A stretch of 64,000 bases of DNA, from contig CAZRAM010000001.1 of assembly GCA_964598145.1 (NCBI GenBank), positions 371,247-435,246 of the forward strand, written 5' to 3'. Position 1 is the first letter of the stretch. Every line of letters starts with the position of its first letter. Of the stretch, positions 13,505-29,795 are shown in pieces. A program made the translations under genes and the position numbers. The DNA comes from an uncultured Pseudomonadales bacterium (GTDB lineage: Bacteria > Pseudomonadota > Gammaproteobacteria > Pseudomonadales > JAHEIH01). The notes beneath the pieces are model-generated. The model was not told the DNA's origin and did not search any database. It saw only the letters and a program-made list of their open reading frames with translations.

Positions 13505-13542
13505 GGGGTTCTGTGGAAGAACCGACAAATTTGACAAGTTTG
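13505..13542 (+). repeat. left terminal inverted repeat (IRL) GGGGTTCTGTGGAAGAACCGACAAATTTGACAAGTTTG
   Basis: Matches the reverse complement of 29801-29838 at 37 of 38 positions (T/C difference at position 6). Confidence 0.9.
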
Positions 13543-13554
13543 GCTCTAACACGA

Positions 13555-14604
13555 TCATAGCGAGCCCTGGAGTTGCTTAAACTGCCCCTGGATCATCGCC
13601 TTTTCCTGAAGTATTACCTTGTTCTCGTCAGTCAGAAATGCAATCTTGTCCTGGCAGGCTTTTAGTTCGGCTTTGGTGGTCTCCAATACTTGAGCTGACA
13701 CAGCCAATTCCTTGCTCACATCTGCTTTTTGGGTGGTGATCACTGCCATGTTTTCCGCCATTTGTTCATTTTTATGCTGGGAATCCCGATACTTCGTCAC
13801 GGCGTCTTCAAGCTCGCGCTTCAGACCCTGGATATCTTCTATCTTTCCGTTTAGCTCCCTGTTTAGCGTTGCATTGGCTTGTTCAAGTTTACCGGCGTTG
13901 CTTTGTAACTGTGCATTAGCATCAAATAACTCAGACGCTTTGGACTCGGCTTGGGTGAGCCGGTGTTGCAGATCACGAATCTGATCTTTTAATCCCTGAA
14001 TAACAGTGCGAAACTGTTCGCGCTCCTGCTGACGGTCTTCCGCTGTGCGCTGCTGATAGTGTTCAAAGTGCTCTCGAATATCCTTGTTTTCCTGCTTGAG
14101 TTCAGCAACGCTTCCCTTCAGTTCAGTAGTCCTCGCAATCGCTTCGTCTCGTTGGGACTCGGCTTTAACCAGGCTGATACGCGCACCTTCCAGAAACTTT
14201 TTTTCCTCACCTTTTTCTTTGTTTTGCCGCTCAATCTGGCTTTCAAGATCTTGTTGTCGAGCAGTAAGCTGCGCGATTGTGTTTTTGGAATCGGTCAACT
14301 CTTTACGAAGCTCGTTATTGAAACCTTCAAATTCCTGACGGGCCTGCTCGATACGATGGTCGGCCATTTGTTGTACCCGCTCATACAGCGACTTTACCAC
14401 TTCGATTAAGTCGTTCGGTAGCCCGCCGATATCAGCCGCCTCTCCGTTATCTGATCGCCAACGTTTGAGCAGTGGTGCGATGGTGCTTTTGCTGCCGGTT
14501 CCGAGGTGTTCACGCACCCGGTCTACAGTAGGTTCTTGGCGCTGACTTTTGATCGCTTCAGCGGCTTTGGCAACGTCGTGGTAAGTGACACCGGCACGGG
14601 CCAT
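13555..14604 (-). CDS. TnpT-like resolution accessory protein (KfrA_N-type N-terminus + long coiled coil)
   Basis: From the ATG at 14604 (AGGA RBS upstream): MARAGVTYHDVAKAAEAIKSQRQEPTVDRVREHLGTGSKSTIAPLLKRWR, followed by about 270 aa of Q/E/K/L-rich coiled coil. It is divergent from the tyrosine recombinase gene, as tnpT is from tnpS in Tn4651-type elements. Confidence 0.55.
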   Translation of the reverse strand: MARAGVTYHDVAKAAEAIKSQRQEPTVDRVREHLGTGSKSTIAPLLKRWRSDNGEAADIGGLPNDLIEVVKSLYERVQQMADHRIEQARQEFEGFNNELRKELTDSKNTIAQLTARQQDLESQIERQNKEKGEEKKFLEGARISLVKAESQRDEAIARTTELKGSVAELKQENKDIREHFEHYQQRTAEDRQQEREQFRTVIQGLKDQIRDLQHRLTQAESKASELFDANAQLQSNAGKLEQANATLNRELNGKIEDIQGLKRELEDAVTKYRDSQHKNEQMAENMAVITTQKADVSKELAVSAQVLETTKAELKACQDKIAFLTDENKVILQEKAMIQGQFKQLQGSL

Positions 14605-14697
14605 GTGGATTCCTCTCAGATTATTTAATAACGTATTATGTAACACGTAAAATAACATTATATTGATGTTTTTCAAATACGATTGAATTTCAAATAT

Positions 14698-14729
14698 TAA
14701 CTAACGATAATGACCATTATCGTTGGTTA
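14698..14729. promoter_or_regulatory. candidate resolution-site core: 32-bp dyad TAACTAACGATAATG-AC-CATTATCGTTGGTTA
   Basis: Perfect 10-bp arms (AACGATAATG/CATTATCGTT) around a 2-bp centre, extendable to 15-bp arms with one mismatch. It lies in the 204-bp tnpT/tnpS divergent intergenic region. Confidence 0.45.
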
Positions 14730-14808
14730 TGATAATCAGGCATAATTTTTTCACTTGTAACGCCGGTACATAGCCGCCTTTTGAGCGACCGCGATAGGAA
14801 TTAGATTC

Positions 14809-15837
14809 ATGCACAGCAAACCACCCAAATTGACCACTGACTTATCATTACGTAATGAGCGATCATATCAGATTGCCCATCGGGAATCCGAAGCGCTGCG
14901 TCACTATCTCCTGGCAGCCACCTCTGACAACACGCGCAAAGCGTATCGCTCGGCCATTCGCCAATTCGAAAAATGGGGTGGCCGACTGCCTACCGACAGG
15001 GATACTGTCGTGCGCTATCTACTGATCAAAGCTGAATCTCTCAACCCTCGGACACTGGATCTCCACCTGACGGCCATCGGCCAATGGCACTACTACCAGG
15101 GAGTCGCTGATCCAGTAAAAGATCCTCTCGTGCGCAAAACGATGGAAGGCATCCGCCGCACTCACGGCCAACCCAAACGCAAAGCCAAGGCGCTGCGCCT
15201 GGAGCACATCGCACAGATGGTAAAGCATCTCCAGCAACTACCAGATAGCAAGAAGAAGTATCGGGATATCGCACTGGTGCTAACGGGCTTCTTCGGGGCG
15301 TTTCGTCGCAGCGAGTTGCTCGCAATACAAGTCACGGACCTGGTGTGGGAGCCTGAGGGCTTGATCATTCGGCTGCCCCGTTCCAAGACCGATCAGCAAG
15401 CTACTGGCTTAGTGCGAGCCCTGCCTTTTGCAGGGAATCCAACCTGTTGTCCAGCCAGAGCAATAAAGCAATGGATGGATACCGCTGATATAGCGATTGG
15501 TCCGCTGTTTCGGCCGGTCAATCGCTGGGATCAGGTTCAAGCCAGGCAATTGAATCCTGGGGCAATCAATGATGTGCTCAAAACCCTTGGTAAAGCCTGT
15601 CAGTTCGATTTTGTCCCCGAACTGAGCAGTCACAGTTTTCGTCGCGGCCTCTCTACCTCGGCGGCTCGGGAACGCGTGGACTATGAACTGATTAAAAAGC
15701 AAGGAGGTTGGAAAAGTGATGCTACCGTTTGGGAGTACATTGAGGAAGGACAGCAGTTCAACAATAACGCGTCAGTCATTCTGATGGAAAAAATGAGTTT
15801 GCTGCTGAACGCTGAATCTCCAAAAAAGGGAAAGTAA
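14809..15837 (+). CDS. tyrosine site-specific recombinase (TnpS-like cointegrate resolvase)
   Basis: 342 aa with catalytic motifs R (FFGAFRRSEL), H-x-x-R (SHSFRRG) and GGW...Y (QGGWKSDATVWEYI). Confidence 0.8.
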   Translation: MHSKPPKLTTDLSLRNERSYQIAHRESEALRHYLLAATSDNTRKAYRSAIRQFEKWGGRLPTDRDTVVRYLLIKAESLNPRTLDLHLTAIGQWHYYQGVADPVKDPLVRKTMEGIRRTHGQPKRKAKALRLEHIAQMVKHLQQLPDSKKKYRDIALVLTGFFGAFRRSELLAIQVTDLVWEPEGLIIRLPRSKTDQQATGLVRALPFAGNPTCCPARAIKQWMDTADIAIGPLFRPVNRWDQVQARQLNPGAINDVLKTLGKACQFDFVPELSSHSFRRGLSTSAARERVDYELIKKQGGWKSDATVWEYIEEGQQFNNNASVILMEKMSLLLNAESPKKGK

Positions 15838-15849
15838 ACAGGATCGAAA

Positions 15850-16374
15850 TCATCTCGGTGCGAACATGATAATGCCCATCCCTACCAGAGTGACGGCCAC
15901 GCCAACAAAATCCCATAGGTGCGGGCGAATCCCATCCACACCCCATAGCCACAGCATGGCTGTCGAAACATAGACGCCGCCATAGGCGGCATAAACCCGG
16001 CCCGCGGTGGTTGGATGAAGAGACAGTTGTAGTTGAACAAATATGTTTGTAACCGTAACAAATAAGTCTGTAACTAAAACGGTGGAATGCAGGCTGTAGC
16101 GTGATTTAAGGCGAAAATCGTTCATTCAGTTACAAATATAATTTTCGGTAAGGCATATCTGACGACGGTAGAATCGGGGCTCCAGCACTGTCCAGTTACA
16201 GACTTATTTGTTTGCCCACAACAGTAACCAGGCAAACAACGCCAGGCTGAACGCAGCCGGCAGCAGAACCCATGCGGATGCCGATTTCTTCAGCCAGAGG
16301 TATGGCAGGTAGCAGCCGACTATTTCCGCAATAGCTGTGATGATAAACAAACCGAGCGTGTAGAGGATGGACAT
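15850..16374 (-). pseudogene. ynfA: ynfA (UPF0060 small membrane protein) interrupted by a 193-bp insertion
   Basis: The 5' part (16374-16226) encodes [51 protein letters not shown]. The 3' part (16022-15850) encodes [57 protein letters not shown]. Removing the element and one TSD copy restores a 108-aa YnfA-like frame. Confidence 0.85.
16028..16220. mobile_element. 193-bp non-autonomous element with Tn7-like termini (TGT...ACA), subterminal repeats and a 5-bp TSD
   Basis: The ends are TGTAGTTGAACAAATATGTTTGTAAC... and (reverse complement) TGTGGGCAAACAAATAAGTCTGTAAC... An 18-mer AACAAATAAGTCTGTAAC is present at 16057-16074 (+) and 16195-16212 (-), with a variant at 16036-16053. ACAGT is duplicated at 16023-16027 and 16221-16225. 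There is no coding capacity. Confidence 0.8.
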
Positions 16375-16388
16375 ACGAAGTTCTCTTG

Positions 16389-17312
16389 TTAGTGCTGATC
16401 CGTTTGGCTGGGCACGGGTTGATCCCGGCAAGCTTCTTCGGGCAGTTCGATTTCAATTGTGGTGTGAGCCAGCGGGTATTGTTCGAGCGCCATAGCAATG
16501 GATTGTTTGATGGCACAGTATTCGTCAGGGCCAAAAACTCCCTCGTGATCCGCTACGATATGGGCCGTCAATACATGCTGTTCACCATCCAGGGACCAGA
16601 GGTGCTGGTGATGAATTCCGCTGATGCCATTAATGCCAATTAGTGTTCGCCGGATCTCTTCGTGAAGCGCCTTATCTGGAACAGCCTGAAAGAAAAGCTT
16701 GCAGGTTACCCAAAGATTCCGACACACATTAAACAGAATAAAGAGAGTAAACCCCACCGATAACAATGGGTCGAGAATAGGCCAGTCGGCAAACTGCAAA
16801 ACGATTGAAATAATCAGCACTGCCACCCACCCCAGCACATCTTCCAATAAATGCCAGTTCAATACCTTTTCGTTCAGCGTATTTCCCTTGCTAAGGCGAT
16901 AAGCAGCAATACCGTTGACGGTGACGCCCAGAATCGCCAGCGCTAACATGCCCTCGGTGACGGGCATCACTGGATTGGCCAGTCGGGGAATTGCTTCGCC
17001 TAATACCCACAGCGATCCGGCAATCAATACCAGGCCGTTGATCAGGGCGCCGAACAGGGACAACCGCCGGTAGCCATAGGTGAATTCGGTGTCGGCGGAT
17101 TTACGTCCCAGCCGGTTCAGGAACCAGGCGCTGCCAATGGACAGACTGTCGCCCAGATCGTGCACCGCATCGGCCATGATAGCCGTGCTGTTGGTGAGCC
17201 AGCCGCCGATGAATTCGATGATGGTAAAGCCCACGTTAAGAAAGAACGCCATTGCTATGCGGCTTGCACTTTCATCTTTGTGGTGTGAATGATCGTGTTG
17301 ATGCATGAGCAA
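16389..17312 (-). CDS. cation diffusion facilitator (CzcD-like Zn/Co/Cd efflux transporter)
   Basis: His-rich N-terminus [14 protein letters not shown], the TM2/TM5 metal-site motifs HDLGD and HLLED, and a C-terminal cytoplasmic domain. Confidence 0.85.
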
Positions 17313-17368
17313 CCCTTACACAATAAATGTACCTGCCCTGACCGTAACGATAAGGGCAGGCACAACGT

Positions 17369-20300
17369 TTATGCCATGTCGCTTAACTTGCCTTTTGAAA
17401 ACCAGGCAAACAGCACCGGCAATACAAACAGCGTCAAGAACGTAGCGGTTACCAACCCGCCCACGATCACACTCGCCAGAGGCTTTTGGATTTCTGCGCC
17501 GACACCATTCGACAGCAGCATGGGGATCAGGCCCAGTGCCGAGGTAATAGCAGTCATCAACACGGGCCTTAGCCTTGAAACCGCTCCATCAAACACCGCA
17601 TCCGATACTTTAAGGCCGTCCGCAATCCGTTGATTGATGCTTTCCACCATGACAACGCCATTCAGTACAGCGACCCCGAACAGGGTGATGAAGCCCACTG
17701 AGCTGGGTACCGACAGATACTGGCCGGAAATCCAGAGTGAAAACACGCCACCAATCACCGCCAGCGGGACATTCACCAGAATCAGCATGGCCTGGCCAAC
17801 CGAGGCAAAGGCAAAATAAAGCAACAAGGCAATTAATCCCAGCGAAACCGGCACCACCAGTGCTAAACGCTTTTGCGCTCTCTGCTGGTTTTCAAACTGG
17901 CCACCGATATCGACGGAATAGCCGGTGGGCAGGTCCACTTGCTCCACAATCGCCTGACGAATATCGGCAACCACGCTGCCCATGTCCCGTCCCTGAACAT
18001 TGGCCTGAATTACAACCCGACGCTGCACGTCATCACGACGTACCTGCGGTGGTCCAGATGCGATACTGACTTCCGCCACATCCCCTAGGCGTACCCAGGC
18101 ACCTGACGGGGCCTGTAAGCGCAGATCGGCAATGGTTTCACGGTCTTCGCGAAACCGCTCGGCGAGCCGCACGTAGATGTCGTAACGCTCGTTGCCATTG
18201 ATGATCTGGCCGGCACTGGCACCTCCCAGCCCTTCGCGTACCAGCTCCATCACGTCGCCCACGGCCAGACCGTAACGGGACAAAGCTCTGCGGTTCGGCT
18301 TCACCACCAGTTGAGATTCACCGGCGATCTGCTCCATGGCCACATCGCGCGCCCCTTCGATTTCTTTCACTGCGGCCTCAATGGCCTGGCCCTTTTCGGC
18401 CAGCACGGCAAGATCGGGACCAAACAACTTGATGGCCAGCTGCGCTTTGACGCCCGAGAGCAACTCGTCCACACGGGTTGCGATGGGTTGCGAGAAGTTG
18501 AGCAGTAAGCCTGGGTGTTGCTCCAGTTTCTGTTCCATCAATGACTGGAGTTCATAACGGTTGTCTGCACTGGTCCATTCCGGCACCGGTTTAAGGCCAA
18601 TATAGATCTCGATGTTATTCACCGGCTCAGGATCGCCGCCGATTTCAGCCCGGCCAATACGTGACAGTGCATAGGTTACCTCTGGGAACTCCATCAACTT
18701 GGCCTCCAGTTTGGGGGCCACTTCCAGCGCGGTATCCAGACTGGAAGAAGGCGCCAGGGTGACGCGCAGATTAATGGTACCCTCCTCCAGTTCAGGCACG
18801 AATTCGGTACCCAAGCGGGGCAGAACCAACGCGGCCGCTACCACCATAATGGCAGCGACACCCACCACCACTTTGCTGTGTCCCATCGCCCAGGCTAAAC
18901 CTTTACGATAGAGCAGATCGAGCGGCTTCAATACAAAGCTCTCGCGTTGGCGAACCCCCCTGCGAAAGAGATAGGTTGCTAGTGCAGGCACGATGATCAG
19001 GGCCACCAACACCGCCGAGAGCATGGCGAGCATGATACTGATGGCCATGGGTTGAAACAGTTTGGCTTCGACACCTTCAAAGCTGAACAGTGGCATGAAG
19101 ACAACCAGAATAATGGCCGTGGCAAAAAAGATGGGGCGAGCGACTTCCTTACCGGCTTCCTGCAGGCGCAAGGCAATACCATGACGGTCGTGGGCCGCAT
19201 CAACAGGGTCCACGTCATCGGAATCCACCCGCGATTGTCTCTGGGTATCATGTTCAGCATCCGGGTGCGTCAGATGTTTAAACATGTTCTCCACCATTAC
19301 TACGGAGCCATCCACCAACATGCCAATGGCGACCGCAATCCCCCCCAGCGACATCAGATTGGCCGACAATCCGAACCAAGCCATCACCATTAAAGCGATT
19401 CCAATAGATATCGGGATGGACATCAACACCAGAAAGGTGGCGCGCAGGTTCATCAGGAATAGCGCAAGGATCACGACGATGAAAATAAACGCCAGCAGCA
19501 GGGCATTGACCACGGTCTGTACGGCCTGGGTGATCAAATCCGCCTGATCGTAAAATGCCTCGAAGCGAACACCTTCCGGTAATGCCTGGTTAATACGCTC
19601 AATGCGTGCATTGACTCCATCAATGGTGGCCTTGGTGTTGGCCCCCATGCGCTTGAGCACGATGCCGGACACCACCTCGCCGAGATTCTCCACCTTGTCG
19701 TCGGCGTTCTTGCGCGTCATGGTCACCGCTCCCTGACGGATCTCACTGCCCAGGGCCACTTGCGCCACGTCGGACACGGTGATCGTAGTACCGTCCACGG
19801 TTTTCAGTGGCACCTGACGGATCTGTTCCAAGCCCTTCTCACCATGATCCAGCCAACCCGTACCCCGGATCACCAGTTGCTCCTGGCCCCGGTTCATATA
19901 CCAACCGCCGACGTTGGTGTTGTTGCGCTCCAGTGCCATCATGACGTCGTCCTGGGTCAGCTCGTAGGCCAACAGTCGGGACGGGTTTAAGTTAACCTGG
20001 TACTGACGCACCTCACCGCCAAAGGAGAGCACATCGGTCACGCCCTCGGCCGGGATCAATAGCAGCTTCACCACCCAGTCGTTCAAGCTACGCAAAGCCA
20101 TGGCGTCGAAACCGGCATCGGGTTCTGCCACCAGCAGATACTGATAGACCTGACCCAGGCCGGAAGTATTCGGGCCCATTTCCGGTGTGCCGACGCCATC
20201 GGGGATCAGCTCCTTGGCAGCCTGAAGCCGTTCAAATACCAGTTGCCGGGCAAAATAAATATCGGTGCCTTCTTTAAAGACTACGGTAACGCCGGACAGG

Positions 20301-20566
20301 CCGGTTTTGGAAATTGAGCGCACCTCTTCCACATCCGGTAAGGCGTACATCACGGCTTCGATGGGATAGGTAATAAGCTGTTCCACCTCTTCGGCAGCCA
20401 GCCCCGGTGCTTCGGTATTGACCGACACCTGCACGTTGGTGACATCCGGAAAAGCATCCAGATTCAGTTTGGGAATAATAAAAACGGCACTGACCGTTAG
20501 TGTGATCAGGGCTATCACCACCAGCAATCGGTTGATGACCGCCCAATCGATAATTCGGTTAAACAT
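17369..20566 (-). CDS. heavy-metal efflux RND transporter, CzcA/CusA family
   Basis: 1065 aa with 12-TM RND architecture and the TM4 motif VAIGMLVDGSVVMVEN. It follows the adaptor and outer-membrane-factor genes in C-B-A order. Confidence 0.95.
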   Translation of the reverse strand: MFNRIIDWAVINRLLVVIALITLTVSAVFIIPKLNLDAFPDVTNVQVSVNTEAPGLAAEEVEQLITYPIEAVMYALPDVEEVRSISKTGLSGVTVVFKEGTDIYFARQLVFERLQAAKELIPDGVGTPEMGPNTSGLGQVYQYLLVAEPDAGFDAMALRSLNDWVVKLLLIPAEGVTDVLSFGGEVRQYQVNLNPSRLLAYELTQDDVMMALERNNTNVGGWYMNRGQEQLVIRGTGWLDHGEKGLEQIRQVPLKTVDGTTITVSDVAQVALGSEIRQGAVTMTRKNADDKVENLGEVVSGIVLKRMGANTKATIDGVNARIERINQALPEGVRFEAFYDQADLITQAVQTVVNALLLAFIFIVVILALFLMNLRATFLVLMSIPISIGIALMVMAWFGLSANLMSLGGIAVAIGMLVDGSVVMVENMFKHLTHPDAEHDTQRQSRVDSDDVDPVDAAHDRHGIALRLQEAGKEVARPIFFATAIILVVFMPLFSFEGVEAKLFQPMAISIMLAMLSAVLVALIIVPALATYLFRRGVRQRESFVLKPLDLLYRKGLAWAMGHSKVVVGVAAIMVVAAALVLPRLGTEFVPELEEGTINLRVTLAPSSSLDTALEVAPKLEAKLMEFPEVTYALSRIGRAEIGGDPEPVNNIEIYIGLKPVPEWTSADNRYELQSLMEQKLEQHPGLLLNFSQPIATRVDELLSGVKAQLAIKLFGPDLAVLAEKGQAIEAAVKEIEGARDVAMEQIAGESQLVVKPNRRALSRYGLAVGDVMELVREGLGGASAGQIINGNERYDIYVRLAERFREDRETIADLRLQAPSGAWVRLGDVAEVSIASGPPQVRRDDVQRRVVIQANVQGRDMGSVVADIRQAIVEQVDLPTGYSVDIGGQFENQQRAQKRLALVVPVSLGLIALLLYFAFASVGQAMLILVNVPLAVIGGVFSLWISGQYLSVPSSVGFITLFGVAVLNGVVMVESINQRIADGLKVSDAVFDGAVSRLRPVLMTAITSALGLIPMLLSNGVGAEIQKPLASVIVGGLVTATFLTLFVLPVLFAWFSKGKLSDMA

Positions 20567-20581
20567 GGGGTCTCCTACTGC

Positions 20582-21940
20582 TTAGTGGTTATGGGGGTCA
20601 AAGCCGCCCTTGGCGATCTGAGAGGCAACAAAGAAAGCGCCCTGAGTGACGATGCGAGCCCCCGGACCGACACCGCTAATTTCACGTAGCGGCCCGAGCG
20701 CTCGACCCAGCTCCACCTCCACTGGCTGGAATTCGCCAGGATGGTCTTCCACGAACACCGTCCAATCTCCGTCTGCGCCGCGCATCAGTGCGGTTTCGGG
20801 TACCGCTAGCACGGGCCTTTTAGTCTGGAATCGGAAATACACCTCGGCGAACTGGCCAGGGTGCAGGCGGTGTTCCGGGTTATTGACCAACAGGCGCACG
20901 GTACGGGTACGGGAGATGGGATCAATGGTGTGCGCCTCCTGAGTGACCTTGGCGTTTACACGGACATCCCCAGCCACCACTTCCGCCCGCGTTCCCGCGC
21001 CCAGCGTCAGGGAGAGATCGGCGGGCAGGTGGGCCTCCACCCAGAGTTGCTTTTCATCGGCCAACGCAATCAAGGGCGCGCCCGCCTCGATGCGCTGCCC
21101 CTGCTCGAAATCATCTCTAAGCACCGCGCCGTCAATCTCGGCATGCAGGGTATACTCCCCTAATGCAACAGATTGCTGAGAAGCGACCAACGCTTGCAAG
21201 TCCGAGGCGGAAAGGCCGTAGGCCAGCAGCGTCGCCCGTGCCGCTTCTAGGTTGGTTTTGGCCGTGATGTAACGCTGCTCACCCACGGTTTTGCGCCCAA
21301 GTTCCTGTACTCTCTGCCATTCAGGCCAAGCCGTGCGGTAATTGGCTTGTGCTTGCGCCACGGTTTCACTGAACAGAGTAACCAGCGGCTGACTCTGTTC
21401 GACGTGATCGCCCAGGGCGACATGGCGGCGCAGCACCACGGAGGGCACCCGGGGCGATACCCGGTAACTGGTGTAGCCGTTGGAAAGGATCTCCCCCGGT
21501 GCGTAAAGCTGATAATCGACCTTTCTGGGAGTCAGTGGGTTTACCTGAATATCGGCCAGGGTCATTTGCGCCGGGTTCAGTGAGGCAGAAGTAGCTTCTT
21601 CGTGACCTCCATGCCCACCATGATTATCGTGGTCACCGCCCTCGCTATGCTCTTCATGCCCGTGTTCTGAGCCGGAGTTGTGCTCGTCGTGGGCACTGTG
21701 TTCATCATGATTTTCGTCGCCATGATCATCGTGGCCGTGCTCGCTGTCAGGCTTATGCGCATCATGCTCTTTATGGTTTTCCTCACGATGATCGTCATGA
21801 TTATCCTGTTCGCTATGGGGTGCCGCCGTTGTCGCTTTTTCCTGCCCATGCTCAGACTCAGATTCTTTGGCGTGGCTGGCGGTTGCGGTCGCAAGACCAG
21901 CCACCAAAATGGCTACCAGTGTTTTATTCATGTTTATCAT
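20582..21940 (-). CDS. efflux RND periplasmic adaptor (CzcB/CusB family) with His/Asp/Glu-rich N-terminal extension
   Basis: Signal peptide, then about 100 aa of HxxH/DH/EH low-complexity sequence, then the membrane-fusion-protein core (barrel-sandwich/beta-barrel pattern ...GAVLRDDFEQGQRIEAG...). Confidence 0.9.
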   Translation of the reverse strand: MINMNKTLVAILVAGLATATASHAKESESEHGQEKATTAAPHSEQDNHDDHREENHKEHDAHKPDSEHGHDDHGDENHDEHSAHDEHNSGSEHGHEEHSEGGDHDNHGGHGGHEEATSASLNPAQMTLADIQVNPLTPRKVDYQLYAPGEILSNGYTSYRVSPRVPSVVLRRHVALGDHVEQSQPLVTLFSETVAQAQANYRTAWPEWQRVQELGRKTVGEQRYITAKTNLEAARATLLAYGLSASDLQALVASQQSVALGEYTLHAEIDGAVLRDDFEQGQRIEAGAPLIALADEKQLWVEAHLPADLSLTLGAGTRAEVVAGDVRVNAKVTQEAHTIDPISRTRTVRLLVNNPEHRLHPGQFAEVYFRFQTKRPVLAVPETALMRGADGDWTVFVEDHPGEFQPVEVELGRALGPLREISGVGPGARIVTQGAFFVASQIAKGGFDPHNH

Positions 21941-21946
21941 TCCTGT

Positions 21947-23185
21947 TTAATTCGTTGACGCTGTCGATGACTTTGTTGCGTTGTTCAGGTGGCCCGATTG
22001 CTGAAGTGCTTCGGTGAGCGCAAGCCGTGTCTGCTTTTCCAGCTCAATGCCTGCCAGCAGGCTTTCGGTGCGTTGATTCAAGGCCAGCAGATAATTAGTG
22101 GTGGACAGATCACCCGTGCGCCATTGCCGTTTCAGCAGTTCGGCGCTGTTCTCGACCCGACCCTGAACAACCTCTTGCCAGCGGCGATATTGCTGTTCAA
22201 AGCGCTGCCAGGTGGCCTGTGCAGCCTGCCAGTCAAAGCGCTGCTTGCGGTAGATAGCCTGAAAACGAGCCTCGGCCTCCAGCGCTATGCGTTCAGCGGC
22301 GCGAGTTTCTGCGCTGAAGTTGTTGCGGACATTCAACGGGATGGAGAAGGTCAGCCCTACAACGCCTTCTCCACCATCACGCCCGGCATTGACGCCAAAG
22401 GTGGGCTCCGCCTTGGCGGTACGCCGTGTCACTTCAGCTTCCTCCTTCAGCGACTGCCAGCGGGCGTGGGCGCTGGCTACGGCCGGGTATTGCCGTAGCT
22501 CCTGATCCGAGGTCAAGTCTGGCTGGGAGGGCCAGAAATCATCAGGAATGCCGCCTCGCGTGGGCGTCCATGCGGGCAGCAGCTCGCGAACCCTGATTTC
22601 GGCTTTCTGTATCGCGGCTTCGGCCTCGGCAACCTGAGCCAGCTGCTGTGACAGGGACAGAAAGGTGAGTTCGGCATCGATGCTGCCCAGATCACCTGCC
22701 TGTTGGCGCTTATCCACCTGTTCGAGCAAGGCGTTAAGTTGCTGCTGTTGCGCTTGGGCAATGGCGGCGGCGCGGTTGGCGGCATGCCACTCCACCAGTG
22801 CGGCAAGCGCATCGGCGGTTTTGTCCAACACTTGTTGCTGGTACAGCGCTTCGGCGGTGCTTCGCATAAAGCCCGCCTGCTGCCGTCTTGCGCCCCGTCT
22901 GTCCCACCAGTCGATGGTCTGCTGAACGCCGACCCGGTAGTTGTCTTCCTCTCCATTACGCTCCAAATCGGTGGACAGCTCCGGGTTGTAAAGCGGCTGC
23001 TCCAGCGCATCGGCGCTGGCGTTGGAGCCCAGCAATTGCTCGCGGGCGGCAAGCACCTCGGGGTGTTGTTGTATCTGGGAGGCGAGCCAGGCGCTCCAAC
23101 TCGATGTCTCTGCGTAAGCAAACATGGGCAGAAAAAGCACGCACGCGCCCAGCAAGGCCCGTCTGGGCCAGTCAAATCGTCTCAT
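21947..23185 (-). CDS. TolC-family outer membrane efflux protein (CzcC/CusC-like)
   Basis: 412 aa with a signal peptide and the two-repeat OEP helical pattern. It is the first gene of the C-B-A operon. Confidence 0.85.
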   Translation of the reverse strand: MRRFDWPRRALLGACVLFLPMFAYAETSSWSAWLASQIQQHPEVLAAREQLLGSNASADALEQPLYNPELSTDLERNGEEDNYRVGVQQTIDWWDRRGARRQQAGFMRSTAEALYQQQVLDKTADALAALVEWHAANRAAAIAQAQQQQLNALLEQVDKRQQAGDLGSIDAELTFLSLSQQLAQVAEAEAAIQKAEIRVRELLPAWTPTRGGIPDDFWPSQPDLTSDQELRQYPAVASAHARWQSLKEEAEVTRRTAKAEPTFGVNAGRDGGEGVVGLTFSIPLNVRNNFSAETRAAERIALEAEARFQAIYRKQRFDWQAAQATWQRFEQQYRRWQEVVQGRVENSAELLKRQWRTGDLSTTNYLLALNQRTESLLAGIELEKQTRLALTEALQQSGHLNNATKSSTASTN

Positions 23186-23202
23186 ATTGATGCTCCTGAA
23201 AT

Positions 23203-23631
23203 TCAGCGTGCGACGGTTTGGTCGTGCACCGGATTTTGCCGTTGTTGGGGTTCATCCCGGTGAAAGGCGACCTTTATTACGGTATCACCAGGCAAGGCGG
23301 GGAGCTTTGCAGAAAAACGCACGCCGCCCTTGCGTGATGCGCGTCTGGTGAGAAGGCGCGGTGAGTAATCAGTGGTTGTTTCCGCAATCAATTCGTTATC
23401 AGCAGACCAGGCTGCGATGTCTACATGGCCTCGGGGAAGGCCGTAGCGCAGGTGAGCATCCATCCGTCCGAAGACGGTCAGCTCCGCGGCGGTATGGTTC
23501 ACGGTCACCTGGCGGAAATGCCAGCGTTGGTTGTCGGTATTGACGACTTCAATTTCAGGCAAGCTGTTTTCGGCCTGAGCGGAATTGACAAGCGCTCGGC
23601 TCAGCGCGAGCCCAATAGCGATCTGTTTCAT
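23203..23631 (-). CDS. hypothetical secreted protein (142 aa)
   Basis: Signal peptide MKQIAIGLALSRALVNSAQA and a beta-rich mature part. It lies immediately upstream of the RND operon. I do not recognise a family. Confidence 0.5.
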   Translation of the reverse strand: MKQIAIGLALSRALVNSAQAENSLPEIEVVNTDNQRWHFRQVTVNHTAAELTVFGRMDAHLRYGLPRGHVDIAAWSADNELIAETTTDYSPRLLTRRASRKGGVRFSAKLPALPGDTVIKVAFHRDEPQQRQNPVHDQTVAR

Positions 23632-23712
23632 GATGTTTCACCCTAAAATAAATACCAATTGTTCGCTGTAACCCAAGGCTACAGAGGCTGATGACGTGCT
23701 GTTGAGGCGCGA

Positions 23713-24081
23713 TCAGGCGATTGGAGGGCGAAACAGAGAGGGGGGAATACCAGAGGTGAGGTTGGCCTGATAGTCGGCTTGTCCGTTTTCTGAGAATAAA
23801 TCGGCTAAGTGTGAAGTGGCTCCGATCAGAACGACAGAGCCGTGGCCATGACAATGGCAGCAATGGTGGCAGTCATATACAGACTGTCCGGGCTGATCGG
23901 GTGTCTGCTTGGCGAGCAGATTGTCGTTGTGGGTATCAGTGGCAGTGGATTGATGCGAATGGTCGAATTCCAGGTGCTCCGTCCCGGATTGATGAAGCTG
24001 GTGAACGTCCGCCATGGCAGCCACAGATTGCAGGGCAATCAGTAGAGCCAGTAGACAAGTTAAATGATGGCGGATGTTCAT
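23713..24081 (-). CDS. small secreted His/Cys-rich protein (CzcI/DUF2946-like)
   Basis: Signal peptide, then HQLHQSGTEHLEFDHSH, then the CHHCCHCHGHG cluster, then a C-terminal ...PPSLFRPPIA tail of the type seen in small metal-resistance accessory proteins. Confidence 0.5.
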   Translation of the reverse strand: MNIRHHLTCLLALLIALQSVAAMADVHQLHQSGTEHLEFDHSHQSTATDTHNDNLLAKQTPDQPGQSVYDCHHCCHCHGHGSVVLIGATSHLADLFSENGQADYQANLTSGIPPSLFRPPIA

Positions 24082-24172
24082 GTGAAATGTGGAGCCCTTA
24101 TGTTGTCAGGTTCAAAACACTAGCTGCCATAGACTATCATATTATAGAAAAGTTCACCAAAACCGTTTCCGG

Positions 24173-25072
24173 TCAGGATTTCAGCTGCAAAATACGTCGT
24201 GCACCGTTTAGGACAACGACGCCAATAATGAGACCAATCACCAGATCCGGATAGCGGGAACCGGTCCAGGCGACCAGGCCACCAGCCAGGATAACCCCCA
24301 GATTGGCAATCACGTCGTTGGCGGAGAATATCCAGCTGGCTTTCATATGCGCTCCACGATTCCTGCTTTTGGCGATCAGCACAAGGCACAACACATTGGC
24401 CGCCAAAGCAGCCAGGCCCATACTCATCATCAGGACGGACGCTGGCTCGCTGCCAAACATAAACCGCCGCACAACTTCACTCAAAGCGCCAAACGCCAAC
24501 ATCAGTTGCAACCAGCCAGAAAAATGTGCCGAGCGCAGTTTCAACCGAGTGCTGCGCCCAACGGCATAGAGCGCCACGCCATAAACGGCGGCATCAGCGA
24601 ACATGTCCAGGGAATCGGCGATCAAGCCAGTGGATTGCGCCCACCAGCCGATGGTGATTTCAATGACAAACATGATGCCGTTGATGGCGAGTAGCCATTT
24701 CAGAATACCCGATTCTTTTTGTGCCTCCTGTTGTGCATCTTCATGTGCTTGGGCGATGGCATCACTGTCTACGGGTGATGTGATTTCAAGCGTAGCGCCC
24801 AAACCAACAGAGTGCATCCGTTCCTCAATCACATCGGCATTATCCCCATGAAAGATACGCACTATGCGATTGGGGGTATCAAATTCCAGCGTTACTTTGG
24901 GTTCCACACTATCCAATGCCATGCGGATCACGCCTTCCTCCGAAGGGCAGTCCATCCTGGAGACATGATACTCGCTAACATAGCCGCCTTGGACGACGCT
25001 TGTGCCATCGGAAATCTGTGGTGTGTTGTCTCGTGCATCGCTGTTACAGCTAGCACAGCATTGCTCAGTCAT
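24173..25072 (-). CDS. CDF-type cation efflux membrane protein with N-terminal HMA-like domain
   Basis: N-terminal CCASC cluster and a ferredoxin-like domain with MDCPSEEGVIRMAL (the MDCPxEE variant of the HMA motif). This is fused to a six-TM cation_efflux core (ADSLDMFADA..., SANDVIANLG...). Confidence 0.75.
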   Translation of the reverse strand: MTEQCCASCNSDARDNTPQISDGTSVVQGGYVSEYHVSRMDCPSEEGVIRMALDSVEPKVTLEFDTPNRIVRIFHGDNADVIEERMHSVGLGATLEITSPVDSDAIAQAHEDAQQEAQKESGILKWLLAINGIMFVIEITIGWWAQSTGLIADSLDMFADAAVYGVALYAVGRSTRLKLRSAHFSGWLQLMLAFGALSEVVRRFMFGSEPASVLMMSMGLAALAANVLCLVLIAKSRNRGAHMKASWIFSANDVIANLGVILAGGLVAWTGSRYPDLVIGLIIGVVVLNGARRILQLKS

Positions 25073-25104
25073 ATTAAAACGCTCTTGTTTTTTCCTGGTT
25101 ATGC

Positions 25105-25135
25105 AGTTTAAATTCTATAGTCACTATAGAATCAA
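25105..25135 (-). promoter_or_regulatory. MerR-type promoter/operator: TTGATT-N19-TAAACT with 21-bp perfect dyad ATTCTATAGTCACTATAGAAT in the spacer
   Basis: On the minus strand, -35 TTGATT (25135-25130), a 19-bp spacer and -10 TAAACT (25110-25105). The dyad at 25112-25132 lies between the divergent merR-family and CDF-HMA genes. Confidence 0.6.
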
Positions 25136-25152
25136 GAGTGAAATTGGTGGTT

Positions 25153-25542
25153 ATGAAAATAGGAGAATTGGCGAGCGTTACCGGCTGCTCAATACAGACG
25201 ATCCGTTATTATGAAAAAGAAAATCTGCTGCCCTCAACCCAACGCACCGAGGGAAATTTTCGCTTGTATGACAAAGCGGCCGTCGACCTGTTGCTGTTCA
25301 TTAAACACTGCCGCAGTCTGGATCTCAGCTTGAAGGAAATCCGTCAACTATTGGCGCTCAAACGCTCGCCTGGCGCGCAATGTGATAAGGTGAATCGGAT
25401 GATGGACGCCCATATTCAACAAGTGGAAGACCGCATTGCCGAGCTGACGCAATTGCGTAGGCAACTCAAAGCGTTGCGCCGCAGTTGCTCAAGCGACCGC
25501 ACGGTGGAGCAGTGCGGCATACTGCAAAATCTGACCACCTAG
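25153..25542 (+). CDS. MerR family metal-responsive regulator (CadR/ZntR/PbrR-like)
   Basis: N-terminal HTH MKIGELASVTGCSIQTIRYYEKENLL, a dimerisation helix, and Cys residues at QCDKV and CSSDRTVEQCG typical of metal-sensing MerR proteins. Confidence 0.85.
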   Translation: MKIGELASVTGCSIQTIRYYEKENLLPSTQRTEGNFRLYDKAAVDLLLFIKHCRSLDLSLKEIRQLLALKRSPGAQCDKVNRMMDAHIQQVEDRIAELTQLRRQLKALRRSCSSDRTVEQCGILQNLTT

Positions 25543-25721
25543 TCAGAATCCGAAGCGGTAACATTGGTTTTCTGATCATTGGAAGTCACACGTCTACCCT
25601 GGATATCCCATTCCACCTTGTTCGGCGATTTTTCACTGAGGTCGGGCTCATGGCGCAGTTTCTGGCCAGTTCCAGGGAAACTGCTCGAGGCTATGTCCGT
25701 GTAGACAGGCGAGGCAAGGCA

Positions 25722-25751
25722 TTGACGTAGATCGCTCGTTTCGAATATTAT
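25722..25751 (+). promoter_or_regulatory. candidate sigma70 promoter of the toxin-antitoxin module (TTGACG-N18-TATTAT)
   Basis: Good -35/-10 hexamers 37 nt upstream of the antitoxin ATG. An imperfect inverted repeat TCGTTTCGA...TCGAACGA spans the -10. Confidence 0.35.
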
Positions 25752-25787
25752 GGACGAATCGAACGATATTTGGTGAGGTACCAGACC

Positions 25788-26048
25788 ATGGACACACTTT
25801 CTGCCAATGAAGCCAAAACCCAGTTTGGTGACCTGCTGCTAAAAGCGCAACGTGCGCCAATCCAGATCAATAAAAACGGAAAACCGGTTGCTGTGGTTAT
25901 CTCAATGGATGAGTACGAGAGCATTAAAGCGCTCAAGCTGAGATTGTTGCAGTCGAGGGCCACTCAGACCAAAGCTGATATCAAAGCAGGTAACACCGTT
26001 GATGGTGAAGCATTTTTTAATGATTTGGAATCAGGTCACCACGACTAG
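25788..26048 (+). CDS. Phd/YefM family type II antitoxin
   Basis: MDTLSANEAKTQFGDLLLKAQRAPIQINKNGKPVAVVISMDEYESI is the canonical Phd/YefM N-terminal fold pattern. A GGTGAGG RBS lies upstream of the ATG at 25788. Confidence 0.75.
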   Translation: MDTLSANEAKTQFGDLLLKAQRAPIQINKNGKPVAVVISMDEYESIKALKLRLLQSRATQTKADIKAGNTVDGEAFFNDLESGHHD

Positions 26049-26074
26049 ACGATAAAATTTCTGGGGGAAGAAAA

Positions 26075-26353
26075 ATGTCTGCTGTCGAGCTGAATGCAGA
26101 ACAACTTCAGATGGTAAAGATCATCCATGACCACGCCCTCCGGTTTCCTCTTACCGAAGCCGGGGATGAGCAATTATTGCAAACCTGCTACGACTACATG
26201 GATGTGTTCAAACGGGTGATGGATAGCACCTCTCACATCCAAATGGATTACATCTGTCAGCAATACGATGGCTTTTATCGTTTTGCCAAACTCATGGAAA
26301 TGCTGGCACAGGGGATCGCCGATGGCATTGTCGATGTTCCCAAGGATCATTAG
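26075..26353 (+). CDS. hypothetical acidic protein (92 aa) between antitoxin and toxin genes
   Basis: ORF with a GGGGGAAG RBS, predicted helical. By my count it has 15 Asp/Glu against 7 Lys/Arg. I do not recognise a family. Confidence 0.45.
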   Translation: MSAVELNAEQLQMVKIIHDHALRFPLTEAGDEQLLQTCYDYMDVFKRVMDSTSHIQMDYICQQYDGFYRFAKLMEMLAQGIADGIVDVPKDH

Positions 26354-26368
26354 TCCCGCCAATACGCC

Positions 26369-26677
26369 ATGTCAAATTACCGCTTAACCCCGGATGCTCA
26401 ATCCGATCTTATCGACATTCGTCGTTTTACCCTAGACCGATGGGGAGAAGCGCAGTCGAAGAAATACCTGTTCGAACTCCGACAAACCCTTCACCTGCTG
26501 GCTGAAACCCCGTCCCTGGGAAAGCCCAGGCCGGATGTAGGGGAGGACGTGTTGAGCTTCCCCCACATCAGTCATGTCATTTATTACGTGGTTCATGCGC
26601 AGCAGTTGGTGGTGTTTGGTGTCCTGCACAAGCGGATGGTGCCAGTGAATCACCTGGATGGGCGCGAGGTGATTTAA
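26369..26677 (+). CDS. ParE/RelE-superfamily type II toxin (ParE-like)
   Basis: MSNYRLTPDAQSDLIDIRRFTLDRWGEAQSKKYLFELRQTLHLLAETPSLG...VIYYVVHAQQLVVFGVLHKRM matches the ParE pattern. Confidence 0.8.
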   Translation: MSNYRLTPDAQSDLIDIRRFTLDRWGEAQSKKYLFELRQTLHLLAETPSLGKPRPDVGEDVLSFPHISHVIYYVVHAQQLVVFGVLHKRMVPVNHLDGREVI

Positions 26678-26717
26678 ATGTGGCTGACGATCGGGCCGCA
26701 TTGAATCGGCACTCGCT

Positions 26718-29700: not shown

Positions 29701-29780
29701 TTGATGTAGACGCGATGGCAAGGATATTGGAGGATCATGTGAAACAGCATTTTTGGCGTGACGATGGGCCTCAGAATTGA
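26718..29780 (+). pseudogene. tnpA: Tn3-family transposase tnpA with in-frame TGA at codon 34
   Basis: The frame from the ATG at 26718 reads MENIERIQLLSSTEVEELYARPEFNTHEQSLYF*LSPTERAALEQFRNTQTRIHFILQLGYFKAKQQFF... The stop is at 26817-26819. The ORF-track start at 26892 is an internal TTG in the same frame. Both sides of the stop look like the DUF4158 N-terminal domain of Tn3 transposases, and the remainder is a full-length DDE Tn3 transposase. Confidence 0.85.
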
Positions 29781-29795
29781 TGATAAATTGGTCGT

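What the first reader, a model, noticed from the sequence alone, without database searches (positions are those of the whole stretch)
16023..16225. 193-bp gene-less element with Tn7-like ends nested in the transposon and splitting ynfA
Seen directly: the YnfA-family reading frame is broken after ...ALFAWLL and resumes at [11 protein letters not shown]... Deleting 16028-16220 and one copy of the flanking ACAGT (16023-16027 or 16221-16225) restores a continuous 108-codon frame, the length of E. coli YnfA. The insert starts TGT and ends ACA and has imperfect terminal IRs of about 26 bp. An 18-mer AACAAATAAGTCTGTAAC sits 8 nt from the right end and 29 nt from the left end in inverted orientation, with a variant 8 nt from the left end and a weaker fourth copy at 16129-16146. 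From memory, the Tn7 right end is TGTGGGCGGACAATAAAGTCTTAAACTG. The end here, TGTGGGCAAACAAATAAGTCTGTAACTG, is strikingly similar. Multiple subterminal transposase-binding repeats with a 5-bp TSD are the Tn7/TnsB-type (also Mu/Tn5053-type) signature. A miniature, non-autonomous Tn7-like element is unusual, and it implies a TnsAB(C)-encoding relative elsewhere in this or a former host. Its target is also atypical for Tn7-like elements: it sits inside another transposon, not at an attTn7-like site.
Basis: partly seen in the sequence, partly recalled or inferred. Interest (0 to 1): 0.75.

Follow-up and report, generated by a model that had tools for sequence, protein, structure and literature searches.

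The report
Miniature Tn7-type remnant splitting ynfA
A 193-base, gene-less leftover of a Tn7-type jumping gene sits inside a small membrane-protein gene and breaks it, on a metal-resistance transposon that is widespread in marine bacteria; it is a real insertion, but a single old event that now rides along passively, not an active family of mini-elements.

Summary
Window 16028-16220 is a 193-bp, 40% GC insert flanked by a 5-bp duplication (ACAGT). Removing it restores a 108-codon ynfA. Its ends are true Tn7-family ends. The window-left arm has two abutting TnsB-type sites at positions 9 and 30, the right-end pattern. The window-right arm has two spaced sites at 9 and 75, the left-end pattern. 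Full-length elements with homologous ends sit next to glmS in gammaproteobacterial MAGs. One of them encodes tnsA-tnsB-tnsC-tnsD-tnsE, and its TnsB matches Tn7 TnsB at E=1e-201.

No independent second copy was found. All 23 other occurrences whose DNA I inspected are the same insertion, 100% identical, carried by a 16.3-kb Tn3-family czc transposon. That transposon has since spread to many genomic contexts; the chimeric 91-aa product is on 686 contigs. No intact allele of this ynfA is on record. The arms hold only 2+2 sites, fewer than laboratory mini-Tn7 ends, and the third right-end site is cut through.

It is therefore a non-autonomous Tn7-clade derivative. I cannot tell whether it jumped as a mini-element or is an in-situ deletion of a full-length insertion, and I lean slightly to the latter. 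I found no published Tn7-derived MITE in the held library. Interest is moderate to low.

The parts
16023..16027 (.). Left copy of the 5-bp target-site duplication ACAGT
   Evidence: Read directly. Keeping only one copy restores the ynfA frame.
16028..16220 (.). The 193-bp gene-less Tn7-clade element (TGT...ACA, 40% GC)
   Evidence: It is 100% identical in the 23 other public occurrences whose DNA I inspected, always at the same site.
16028..16082 (+). Right-end-type arm. It holds the 8-bp terminus TGTAGTTG (16028-16035), TnsB-type site R1 (16036-16054), site R2 (16057-16075), and the first ~5 nt of a truncated third site (TAAAAC, up to about 16081).
   Evidence: Sites fall at positions 9 and 30, as in the L010/L040 right end and Tn7R. 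The first 55 nt are 80-84% identical to the right ends of tnsA-proximal, glmS-adjacent elements, and about 20% identical beyond that.
16083..16127 (.). Interior of uncertain origin. It contains the deletion junction between the two arms.
   Evidence: No homology to the subterminal regions of related ends. No Rfam family matches.
16128..16220 (-). Left-end-type arm. It holds the 8-bp terminus TGTGGGCA (16213-16220), TnsB-type site L1 (16194-16212) and site L2 (16128-16146). The third site expected near position 130 is absent.
   Evidence: Sites fall at positions 9 and 75, as in L008, L001, L009, L012 and L007b and Tn7L. The alignment is colinear through L2 and then similarity is lost.
16221..16225 (.). 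Right copy of the target-site duplication ACAGT
16204..16374 (-). The ynfA 5' fragment (codons 1-51), read on into the insert to a stop inside it. The product is 56 aa ending ...[10 protein letters not shown].
   Evidence: The exact product is listed in 439 blocks of the collection and is always followed at fixed spacing by the 91-aa ORF.
15850..16125 (-). Chimeric 91-aa ORF. Its ATG lies inside the insert (16125) and it reads out through the right-type end into the ynfA 3' fragment (15850-16027). No Shine-Dalgarno-like motif lies upstream.
   Evidence: The exact product is on 686 contigs and is annotated in public records as 'YnfA family protein'.
13505..29838 (.). The carrier: a 16,334-bp Tn3-family transposon with 38-bp inverted repeats (13505-13542 and 29801-29838, 37/38 matching) and a 5-bp duplication TTATA. 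It carries kfrA, a tyrosine integrase, ynfA::insert, czcD, czcCBA, a second CDF gene and tnpA.
   Evidence: The same transposon lies in different flanks in L014 and L046-L055.

Best explanation
The 193 bp are the two cis-acting ends of a transposon of the prototypic Tn7 clade, fused by an internal deletion that removed every gene. What remains is about 55 bp of right end with two abutting TnsB-type sites and about 95 bp of left end with two spaced sites.

The element entered codon 51/52 of ynfA by TnsA/TnsB-type cut-and-paste transposition, which left the 5-bp duplication ACAGT. The site is not an attTn7 site, and relatives encode TnsE. The most likely route was therefore a TnsABC+TnsE-type pathway acting while the Tn3-family czc transposon sat on a plasmid or other replicating mobile DNA.

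This happened once. The insertion then became fixed in the transposon lineage and has since been copied passively, by Tn3-type transposition and by homologous recombination between transposon variants, into many marine gammaproteobacterial genomes.

Shown here: that it is an insertion, its Tn7-clade end architecture, that it is a single event, and that it travels as a passenger. Inferred: the TnsE route.

Unresolved: how it became miniature. My estimate is about 55% for a full-length element that inserted and was then deleted in situ, and about 35% for a mini-element made elsewhere and mobilised in trans. With only 2+2 sites, a cut third right-end site and no transposase nearby, it is probably inert now. 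Its one clear effect is to inactivate ynfA, the last gene after czcD.
For: - Insertion: duplication plus restored 108-aa frame, intact orthologues with a contiguous site, and a GC drop.
- Tn7-clade ends: site maps of 9/30 and 9/75 match the right and left ends of relatives and of real Tn7 taken from plasmid R721.
- Relatives are full Tn7-type elements at attTn7. In L010/L040 the right end lies 26 nt after the glmS stop, followed by tnsA (E=8e-78 to Tn7 TnsA), tnsB (E=1e-201 to Tn7 TnsB, chain 7pik), tnsC, tnsD and tnsE. L008 and L010 are the two ends of one element with duplication CAAGT.
- Single event: the window, L004, L014, L017 and L046-L065 all carry the 100% identical insert at the same site.
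- Passenger on a mobile carrier: the Tn3-family inverted repeats and duplication, different flanks, and mosaic divergence blocks that begin 65-115 bp from the insert while the insert itself never varies.
- In-situ decay is common in this clade. L001 holds a 701-bp remnant at glmS with an intact TATGT duplication but only 10 bp of right end, so it cannot have moved in that form. L003/L023 and L007 hold other sub-kb remnants.
- Few sites: VchCAST needs three left and two right TnsB sites for efficient integration (PMC10201428). Laboratory mini-Tn7 uses 144 bp of left end and 70 bp of right end (PMC11014353).
Against: - No parent element with near-identical ends was found. The best right arms are 80-84% identical and the best left arms 54-61%.
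- No full-length element was seen in ynfA in any of the contigs read, so there is no direct witness for in-situ deletion.
- The collection scans needed exact matches to a 19-specified-base end pattern, in one genome per species and in JGI metagenomes. Diverged independent copies could have been missed.
- The TnsE route is inference from a relative's gene content, not from this copy.
- Two left sites might still suffice for this TnsB; that was not tested.
Confidence: 0.85

Rival explanations
1. It is a true MITE. A mini-element arose elsewhere and was mobilised in trans by a cognate TnsABC(+E) into ynfA. It belongs, or once belonged, to a multi-copy family that may still be mobile where a cognate Tn7-like element is present.
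For: Both termini are intact (TGT/ACA with 8-bp terminal sequences). R1, R2, L1 and L2 are present at the correct spacing, and the duplication is perfect. Two right-end sites are enough in VchCAST (PMC10201428). Another two-ended sub-kb element of the same clade exists (L007, 617 bp).
Against: No independent copy turned up in 185,579 species genomes, JGI metagenomes, IMG/VR or PLSDB. All 23 further copies inspected are the same insertion. The left arm lacks the third site needed for efficient integration in VchCAST, and the third right-end site is cut through, as expected for an unselected deletion endpoint. This route needs one more step than in-situ deletion. The L007 mini-element sits at attTn7 without a duplication, so it is not evidence of mini-element mobility.
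Confidence: 0.35
2. The element is kept because it does something. One possibility is a cis-acting target-immunity tag: TnsB sites that make the czc transposon and any replicon carrying it refractory to cognate Tn7-like insertions. Another is that it supplies a start codon or promoter for the truncated YnfA C-terminal ORF.
For: The insert is invariant in every copy while neighbouring DNA differs by 2-5% in blocks. An immobile mini-Tn6022 bearing TnsB sites reduces insertion into its carrier plasmid by orders of magnitude (PMC11014353). The 91-aa ORF starts inside the insert, in frame with the ynfA 3' part.
Against: The invariance is matched by the flanks from about 14715 to 16285, which are equally identical, so recent common descent and recombination explain it. 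No Shine-Dalgarno motif precedes the ATG (read directly). The 91-aa product lacks the first half of a small multi-pass membrane protein.
Confidence: 0.08
3. It derives from another transposon family that makes 5-bp duplications or has TG...CA ends (Tn5053/Tn402, Mu-like, IS21 or another IS-derived MITE), and the resemblance to Tn7 is superficial.
For: TGT/ACA termini and 5-bp duplications are shared by Mu and by Tn5053/Tn402-type elements (my own knowledge).
Against: The end pattern recovers elements whose adjacent genes are TnsA (Pfam PF08722 and PF08721; E=8e-78 to Tn7 TnsA) and TnsB (E=1e-201 to Tn7 TnsB), at glmS. Site positions coincide with real Tn7L and Tn7R. The right arm is 80-84% identical to those right ends.
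Confidence: 0.02
4. It is not an insertion at all but an ancestral intergenic spacer between two small genes, or an assembly artefact.
For: Every homologous transposon on record carries the same 193 bp, and no intact allele of exactly this ynfA exists in the 15-billion-protein collection.
Against: A perfect 5-bp direct repeat flanks the insert, and removing it restores a frame colinear with 108-aa YnfA proteins at 93% identity. Orthologous DNA is contiguous across the site. The same sequence appears in independent assemblies from NCBI, JGI, ENA, TARA and Logan.
Confidence: 0.01

Closest known systems
Prototypic Tn7 (E. coli; ends read here from plasmid R721, NC_002525.1)
   Same: TGT...ACA termini, an 8-bp terminal sequence followed by the first TnsB site at position 9, and a 5-bp duplication. 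The left end has spaced sites and the right end has abutting sites (9, 29, 50...). The site core is similar: ACAAATAAGTCTGTAAC against ACAATAAAGTCTTAAAC.
   Different: Tn7 is 14 kb and encodes tnsABCDE plus cargo. It has three left and four right sites. Arm identity to Tn7 is only 52% (left) and 60% (right). This element has no genes and 2+2 sites.
Tn7-clade elements at glmS in gammaproteobacterial MAGs (L008/L010/L040, L041, L044; TnsB cluster P0153-P0163, including Teredinibacter turnerae at 71% identity)
   Same: These are the closest ends found. The consensus TGTAGGTGAACAAATAAGT(C/T)TGTAAC is the same, the site positions are the same, and the right arm is 80-84% identical. They are full tnsA-B-C-D-E elements.
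   Different: They sit at attTn7, are tens of kb long and are autonomous. The left arm is only 54-61% identical, so none of them is the direct parent.
Laboratory mini-Tn7 and mini-CAST donors
   Same: The concept is the same: only the two ends are needed in cis, with the proteins supplied in trans.
   Different: Laboratory elements keep 144 bp of left end and 70 bp of right end of Tn7 (PMC11014353). VchCAST needs three left and two right sites (PMC10201428). The natural element has 193 bp in total and only two left sites, and its mobility is untested.
Bacterial MITEs and TIMEs (IS-derived MITEs; Tn3-derived inverted-repeat miniature elements, PMC4133298; review PMC10969869)
   Same: It is small and non-coding, has terminal inverted repeats and a duplication, and derives from an autonomous transposon by internal deletion.
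   Different: Those families are multi-copy and derive from single-transposase IS or Tn3 elements. Here only one insertion event is known, and the parent family uses a heteromeric TnsA/TnsB transposase with a TnsC regulator. The 2024 MITE review mentions no Tn7-derived MITE.
Decayed Tn7-like remnants at attachment sites (for example downstream of nrdB in Acinetobacter baumannii, PMC11014353; here L001, L003/L023 and L007 at glmS)
   Same: These are sub-kb leftovers of Tn7-like elements produced by internal deletion.
   Different: Those lie at att sites and often lack one functional end. This one lies inside a gene on another transposon and keeps both termini and its duplication.

Membership tests
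Tn7 family (TnsA/TnsB heteromeric-transposase elements, prototypic Tn7 clade): cis-acting ends | 5'-TGT...ACA-3' termini, with an 8-bp terminal segment before the first TnsB site | tested here: met
   TGTAGTTG and TGTGGGCA, each followed by a site at position 9 in both arms, as in Tn7 and its relatives.
Tn7 family: cis-acting ends | 5-bp target-site duplication | tested here: met
   ACAGT on both sides. Control elements: Tn7 in R721 has GTGCG, L008/L010 have CAAGT, and L001 has TATGT.
Tn7 family: cis-acting ends | Several TnsB-binding repeats of about 19-22 bp arranged asymmetrically: spaced in the left end, abutting in the right end | tested here: met
   The right-type arm has sites at 9 and 30. 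The left-type arm has sites at 9 and 75. These positions match relatives and Tn7L/Tn7R, but the element has only 2+2 sites instead of 3+3 or 3+4.
Tn7 family: cis-acting ends | Ends homologous to those of elements that encode TnsA, TnsB and TnsC (and TnsD/TnsE) | tested here: met
   The end pattern recovers glmS-adjacent elements with tnsABCDE. The right arm is 80-84% identical.
Tn7 family: autonomous element | Encodes its own tnsA/tnsB/tnsC | tested here: not met
   The 193 bp hold no internal gene, and no tns gene lies in the 64-kb window.
Tn7 family: autonomous element | Insertion at a dedicated attachment site (glmS) through TnsD/TniQ | tested here: not met
   This copy is inside ynfA. Its relatives are 24-26 nt downstream of glmS. 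A TnsE-type route is inferred, not tested.
Tn7 family | TnsB binds the sites and TnsABC excises and integrates the element | not testable with these tools
   Needs footprinting and a mate-out assay.
MITE (miniature inverted-repeat transposable element) | Small, non-coding, with terminal inverted repeats and a target-site duplication | tested here: met
   193 bp, 20/26 terminal inverted repeat, 5-bp duplication.
MITE | Multiple dispersed copies at different sites, as evidence of mobilisation in trans | tested here: not met
   Every copy found is the same ynfA insertion. There were no hits in PLSDB or IMG/VR. The searches were limited to exact end-pattern matches.
MITE | A related autonomous element with matching ends | tested here: inconclusive
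   Clade relatives were found, but none is close enough (left arm 54-61% identical) to be the cognate parent.
Tn5053/Tn402 or Mu-type elements | Ends matching those families, with TniA/MuA-type partners and no TnsA | tested here: not met
   Elements sharing these ends encode TnsA and a TnsB colinear with Tn7 TnsB. I made no direct alignment to Tn5053 ends.

The most novel reading that the evidence does not exclude
The 193-bp element is a natural Tn7-derived MITE that a cognate TnsABC can still move although it has only two left and two right TnsB sites. That would make it smaller than any laboratory-defined minimal Tn7 donor. Alternatively or in addition, its TnsB sites act as a portable target-immunity tag that shields the widespread czc transposon and its carrier replicons from invasion by cognate Tn7-like elements.
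Probability: 0.15. Interest if true: 0.6.

Novelty: new member of a known kind. Interest (0 to 1): 0.35.

Why it matters
- Record of an interaction: a Tn7-clade element that normally homes to glmS once inserted into another mobile element. Its scar has since been carried across many marine Gammaproteobacteria, with the chimeric product on 686 contigs.
- Annotation: public records label the 91-aa chimeric ORF as an ordinary 'YnfA family protein', although it is a fragment of a disrupted gene.
- Marker: the invariant insert and its junctions give a convenient tag for tracing this czc transposon lineage.
- Engineering: if the element proved mobilisable, it would define an unusually small natural donor (2+2 sites, 193 bp) for a close relative of Tn7. 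That would interest people who engineer Tn7 and CAST ends. If it conferred target immunity, it would be an example of one transposon carrying protection against another. Neither is shown.

Tried and rejected
- Searches for further copies: blastn (distant mode) of the 193 bp against PLSDB plasmids found nothing. IMG/VR scans with the end pattern and with an internal 33-mer found nothing.
- RNA families: Rfam at a permissive threshold over 15700-16500 gave only a chance lncRNA hit at E=0.83.
- Transposase in the window: Pfam scans of 29 of the window's 48 ORFs of at least 150 aa found no tnsA, tnsB or tnsC.
- Intact allele: an exact look-up of the restored 108-aa YnfA shows it is not in the collection. 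The nearest intact proteins are 93% identical.
- Full-length precursor: I looked in ynfA through the contexts of the 56-aa fragment. In all 10 places shown (23 contigs read), the 91-aa ORF follows at fixed spacing.
- Host identity: the window's chromosomal proteins sit in unnamed clusters. Only the transposon's proteins carry names (Ketobacter, Thalassolituus/Oleibacter, Pseudoteredinibacter, Oceanospirillales and Pseudomonadales MAGs). I could therefore not ask whether the same genome holds a cognate Tn7-like element.
- Literature: six full-text searches and several papers yielded no description of a Tn7-derived MITE. Parks & Peters 2007 and 2009, the most likely places for such a note, are not held.
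- L007: I considered it a second mobile mini-element and rejected that, because its flanks show no duplication (TAGGA against AATCG) and it sits at attTn7.
- Pfam on the TnsB fragment gave only a weak Mu-transpos_C hit. The PDB sequence search settled its identity.

Full report
**Observation**

ACAGT occurs at 16023-16027 and again at 16221-16225. Between the two copies lie 193 bp (16028-16220) that begin TGT and end ACA.

Joining 16027 to 16226 gives an uninterrupted 108-codon YnfA on the minus strand. That protein is 93% identical over its full length to intact 108-aa YnfA proteins such as the one from Thalassolituus. In the Thalassolituus czcA-PII-czcD-ynfA locus the DNA is contiguous across the site...gcctggttGCTGTctcttcatcc....

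The insert is 40% GC in a 52.6% GC window. The 18-mer AACAAATAAGTCTGTAAC and its variants occur at 16036, 16057 and 16195, against 0.03 expected by chance. The terminal inverted repeats match at 20 of 26 positions. No Rfam family matches the region.

**What the ends are**

I scanned one genome per species (185,579 species) for TGTNNNNNAACAAATANGTNTGTAAC, a pattern that fits both termini. This returned 13 loci.

One pair, L008 and L010 on a single MAG contig, forms the two ends of a full-length element with a CAAGT duplication.
- Its right end lies 26 nt after the glmS stop codon. The genes that follow are tnsA (Pfam TnsA N and C domains; E=8e-78 to Tn7 TnsA), tnsB (E=1e-201, colinear with Tn7 TnsB chain 7pik), tnsC, tnsD and tnsE.
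- Related elements L041 and L044 look the same and have four abutting right-end sites.

I also fetched real Tn7 from plasmid R721. Its left end is at L039 932, its right end at 14998, and its duplication is GTGCG.

Mapping a 19-mer site consensus onto all these ends gives a clean picture:

| End type | Elements | Site positions |
|---|---|---|
| Left ends of relatives | L008, L001, L009, L012, L007b | 9, 75, 130 |
| Tn7 left end | R721 | 9, 73, 129 |
| Right end of relative | L010 | 9, 30, 51 |
| Tn7 right end | R721 | 9, 29, 50 |
| Insert, window-left arm | this element | 9, 30 (right type) |
| Insert, window-right arm | this element | 9, 75 (left type) |

It sits exactly where it should, and the chance of such a match at one fixed position is about 1e-5.

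Alignments show how far each arm extends.
- The right arm is colinear with autonomous right ends for 55 nt at 80-84% identity. It breaks off five bases into the third site.
- The left arm is colinear through its second site at 54-61% identity and then loses similarity before the third site.

The element is therefore about 95 bp of left end fused to about 55 bp of right end, with roughly 45 bp of uncertain origin between them. It is an internal-deletion derivative of a close relative of prototypic Tn7.

**How many times it inserted**

Only one insertion event is visible.
- The genome scan, the JGI metagenome scan and look-ups of the two truncated ynfA products recovered 23 further loci: L004, L014, L017 and L046-L065.
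- All 23 carry the 100% identical 193 bp at the identical site with the identical duplication.
- The chimeric 91-aa product is on 686 contigs and is listed in 947 blocks of the collection.
- The restored intact YnfA is absent from about 15 billion proteins.
- PLSDB and IMG/VR hold no copy.

**The carrier**

The carrier is a 16,334-bp Tn3-family transposon at window 13505-29838. It has 38-bp inverted repeats and a TTATA duplication. It carries kfrA, a tyrosine integrase, ynfA::insert, czcD, czcCBA, a second CDF gene and tnpA.

This transposon sits in many different flanking contexts. Its variants are mosaics: blocks that are 2-5% divergent begin as close as 65-115 bp from the insert, while the insert and its left flank are invariant. 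The insertion therefore predates the spread of this transposon lineage and now travels as a passenger.

**Mechanism**

The 5-bp duplication and TGT/ACA termini are the products of TnsB-type strand transfer. From my own knowledge of Tn7, TnsA cleaves the other strand, which gives cut-and-paste transposition.

The site is not an attTn7 site. The related full-length element encodes TnsE. In Tn7, TnsE directs insertion into conjugal plasmids and replicating DNA (my own knowledge). The carrier has the plasmid-type gene kfrA. I therefore infer a TnsABC+E-type event on a plasmid-borne copy of the carrier.

**How it became miniature**

This is unresolved. There are two routes.
- (a) A full-length element inserted in ynfA and was later deleted in situ.
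- (b) A mini-element formed elsewhere and was mobilised in trans.

Route (a) needs one step fewer, and it has precedents in this clade.
- L001 carries a 701-bp remnant at glmS with an intact TATGT duplication but only 10 bp of right end, so it cannot have moved in that form.
- L003/L023 and L007 carry other sub-kb remnants at glmS.

The deletion endpoint that cuts through the third right-end site, and the missing third left-end site, also look unselected. VchCAST needs three left and two right sites for efficient integration (PMC10201428). Laboratory mini-Tn7 keeps 144 bp of left end and 70 bp of right end (PMC11014353).

Against (a), no full-length element in ynfA was seen in any context read. 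I put (a) near 55% and (b) near 35%.

Either way, the present effect is a disrupted ynfA. It is the last gene downstream of czcD on the same strand, so no polar effect on the czc genes is expected. This last point is inference.

**Comparison with what is known, and novelty**

The cis-acting features of Tn7-family ends are all met. The autonomous-element features (own tns genes, att-site targeting) are not met. The structural features of a MITE are met, but the defining multi-copy dispersal is not.

In the held literature I found no Tn7-derived MITE, including in a 2024 review of prokaryotic MITEs. Decayed Tn7-like remnants at att sites are known (PMC11014353). Two likely older sources were not available.

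I file it as a new member of a known kind: a decayed or miniature derivative of a known transposon family. It would be upgraded if mobility in trans or target immunity were shown. An immobile mini-Tn6022 bearing TnsB sites strongly suppresses insertion into its carrier (PMC11014353), so an immunity-tag role is conceivable but untested.

**Verdict**

Interest is 0.35.

Noticed in passing
window 13505-29838: A complete 16,334-bp Tn3-family transposon. It has 38-bp inverted repeats (37/38 matching) and a 5-bp duplication TTATA, and sits in chromosomal DNA. It carries kfrA, a tyrosine integrase, czcD, czcCBA, a second CDF gene and tnpA. It occurs in many different flanks in marine genomes and metagenomes, and its variants are recombinant mosaics.
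   Followed up: partly
window 15850-16125 (-): A chimeric 91-aa ORF whose ATG lies inside the insert. Public records annotate it as 'YnfA family protein' (for example from Ketobacter and Pseudoteredinibacter). The exact product is on 686 contigs, so the disruption has gone unnoticed in annotation.
   Followed up: partly
L001 1995-2695: A 701-bp Tn7-like remnant 24 nt downstream of glmS with an intact 5-bp duplication TATGT. Its left arm has three sites, but its right arm is reduced to TGTAGGTGAA. This is a clear case of in-situ internal deletion.
   Followed up: partly
L007 439-1055: A 617-bp two-ended mini element of the same clade 24 nt after the glmS stop. The right-type end has one site and the left-type end has three. 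The flanks show no matching duplication (TAGGA against AATCG). It shares GTAACTAAAACGG with the right arm of the window's element.
   Followed up: partly
L003 2482-3243 and L023 1122-1883: Identical remnants of about 760 bp between a one-site left end and glmS. The distal flank is nearly the same as that of the full-length element in L008, so this is the same att site in a related genome.
   Followed up: no
L040 12097-13751: In the full-length glmS element, tnsC is split into two ORFs of 195 and 341 aa, whereas L041 and L044 have an intact tnsC of 551-553 aa. This is either a frameshift that inactivates the element or a long-read assembly error. The cargo includes a DUF4238 protein and a NACHT-like protein of more than 2000 aa.
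   Followed up: no
L005 360-403 and L020 14515-14557: A Tn7-like end whose outer flank (...CATATTTGTTACGCGTTCATCGATT) resembles part of a TnsB-type site and shares ATCGATT with the flank of the L007 left end. This may be one Tn7-like element inserted next to or inside the end of another.
   Followed up: no
L052, L057, L059, L061, L062, L065 (region equivalent to window ~14800-15300): In several variants of the czc transposon the tyrosine integrase is cut to 120 aa and is followed by a different 977-aa Tn3-family transposase gene and, in L052, chromate-resistance genes. This points to further nesting or recombination of Tn3-family elements.
   Followed up: no
window 14456-14714 against L004 and L017: A sharp switch from about 99.9% to about 70% identity inside kfrA between the window and two other copies of the transposon. 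It marks a recombination breakpoint.
   Followed up: partly
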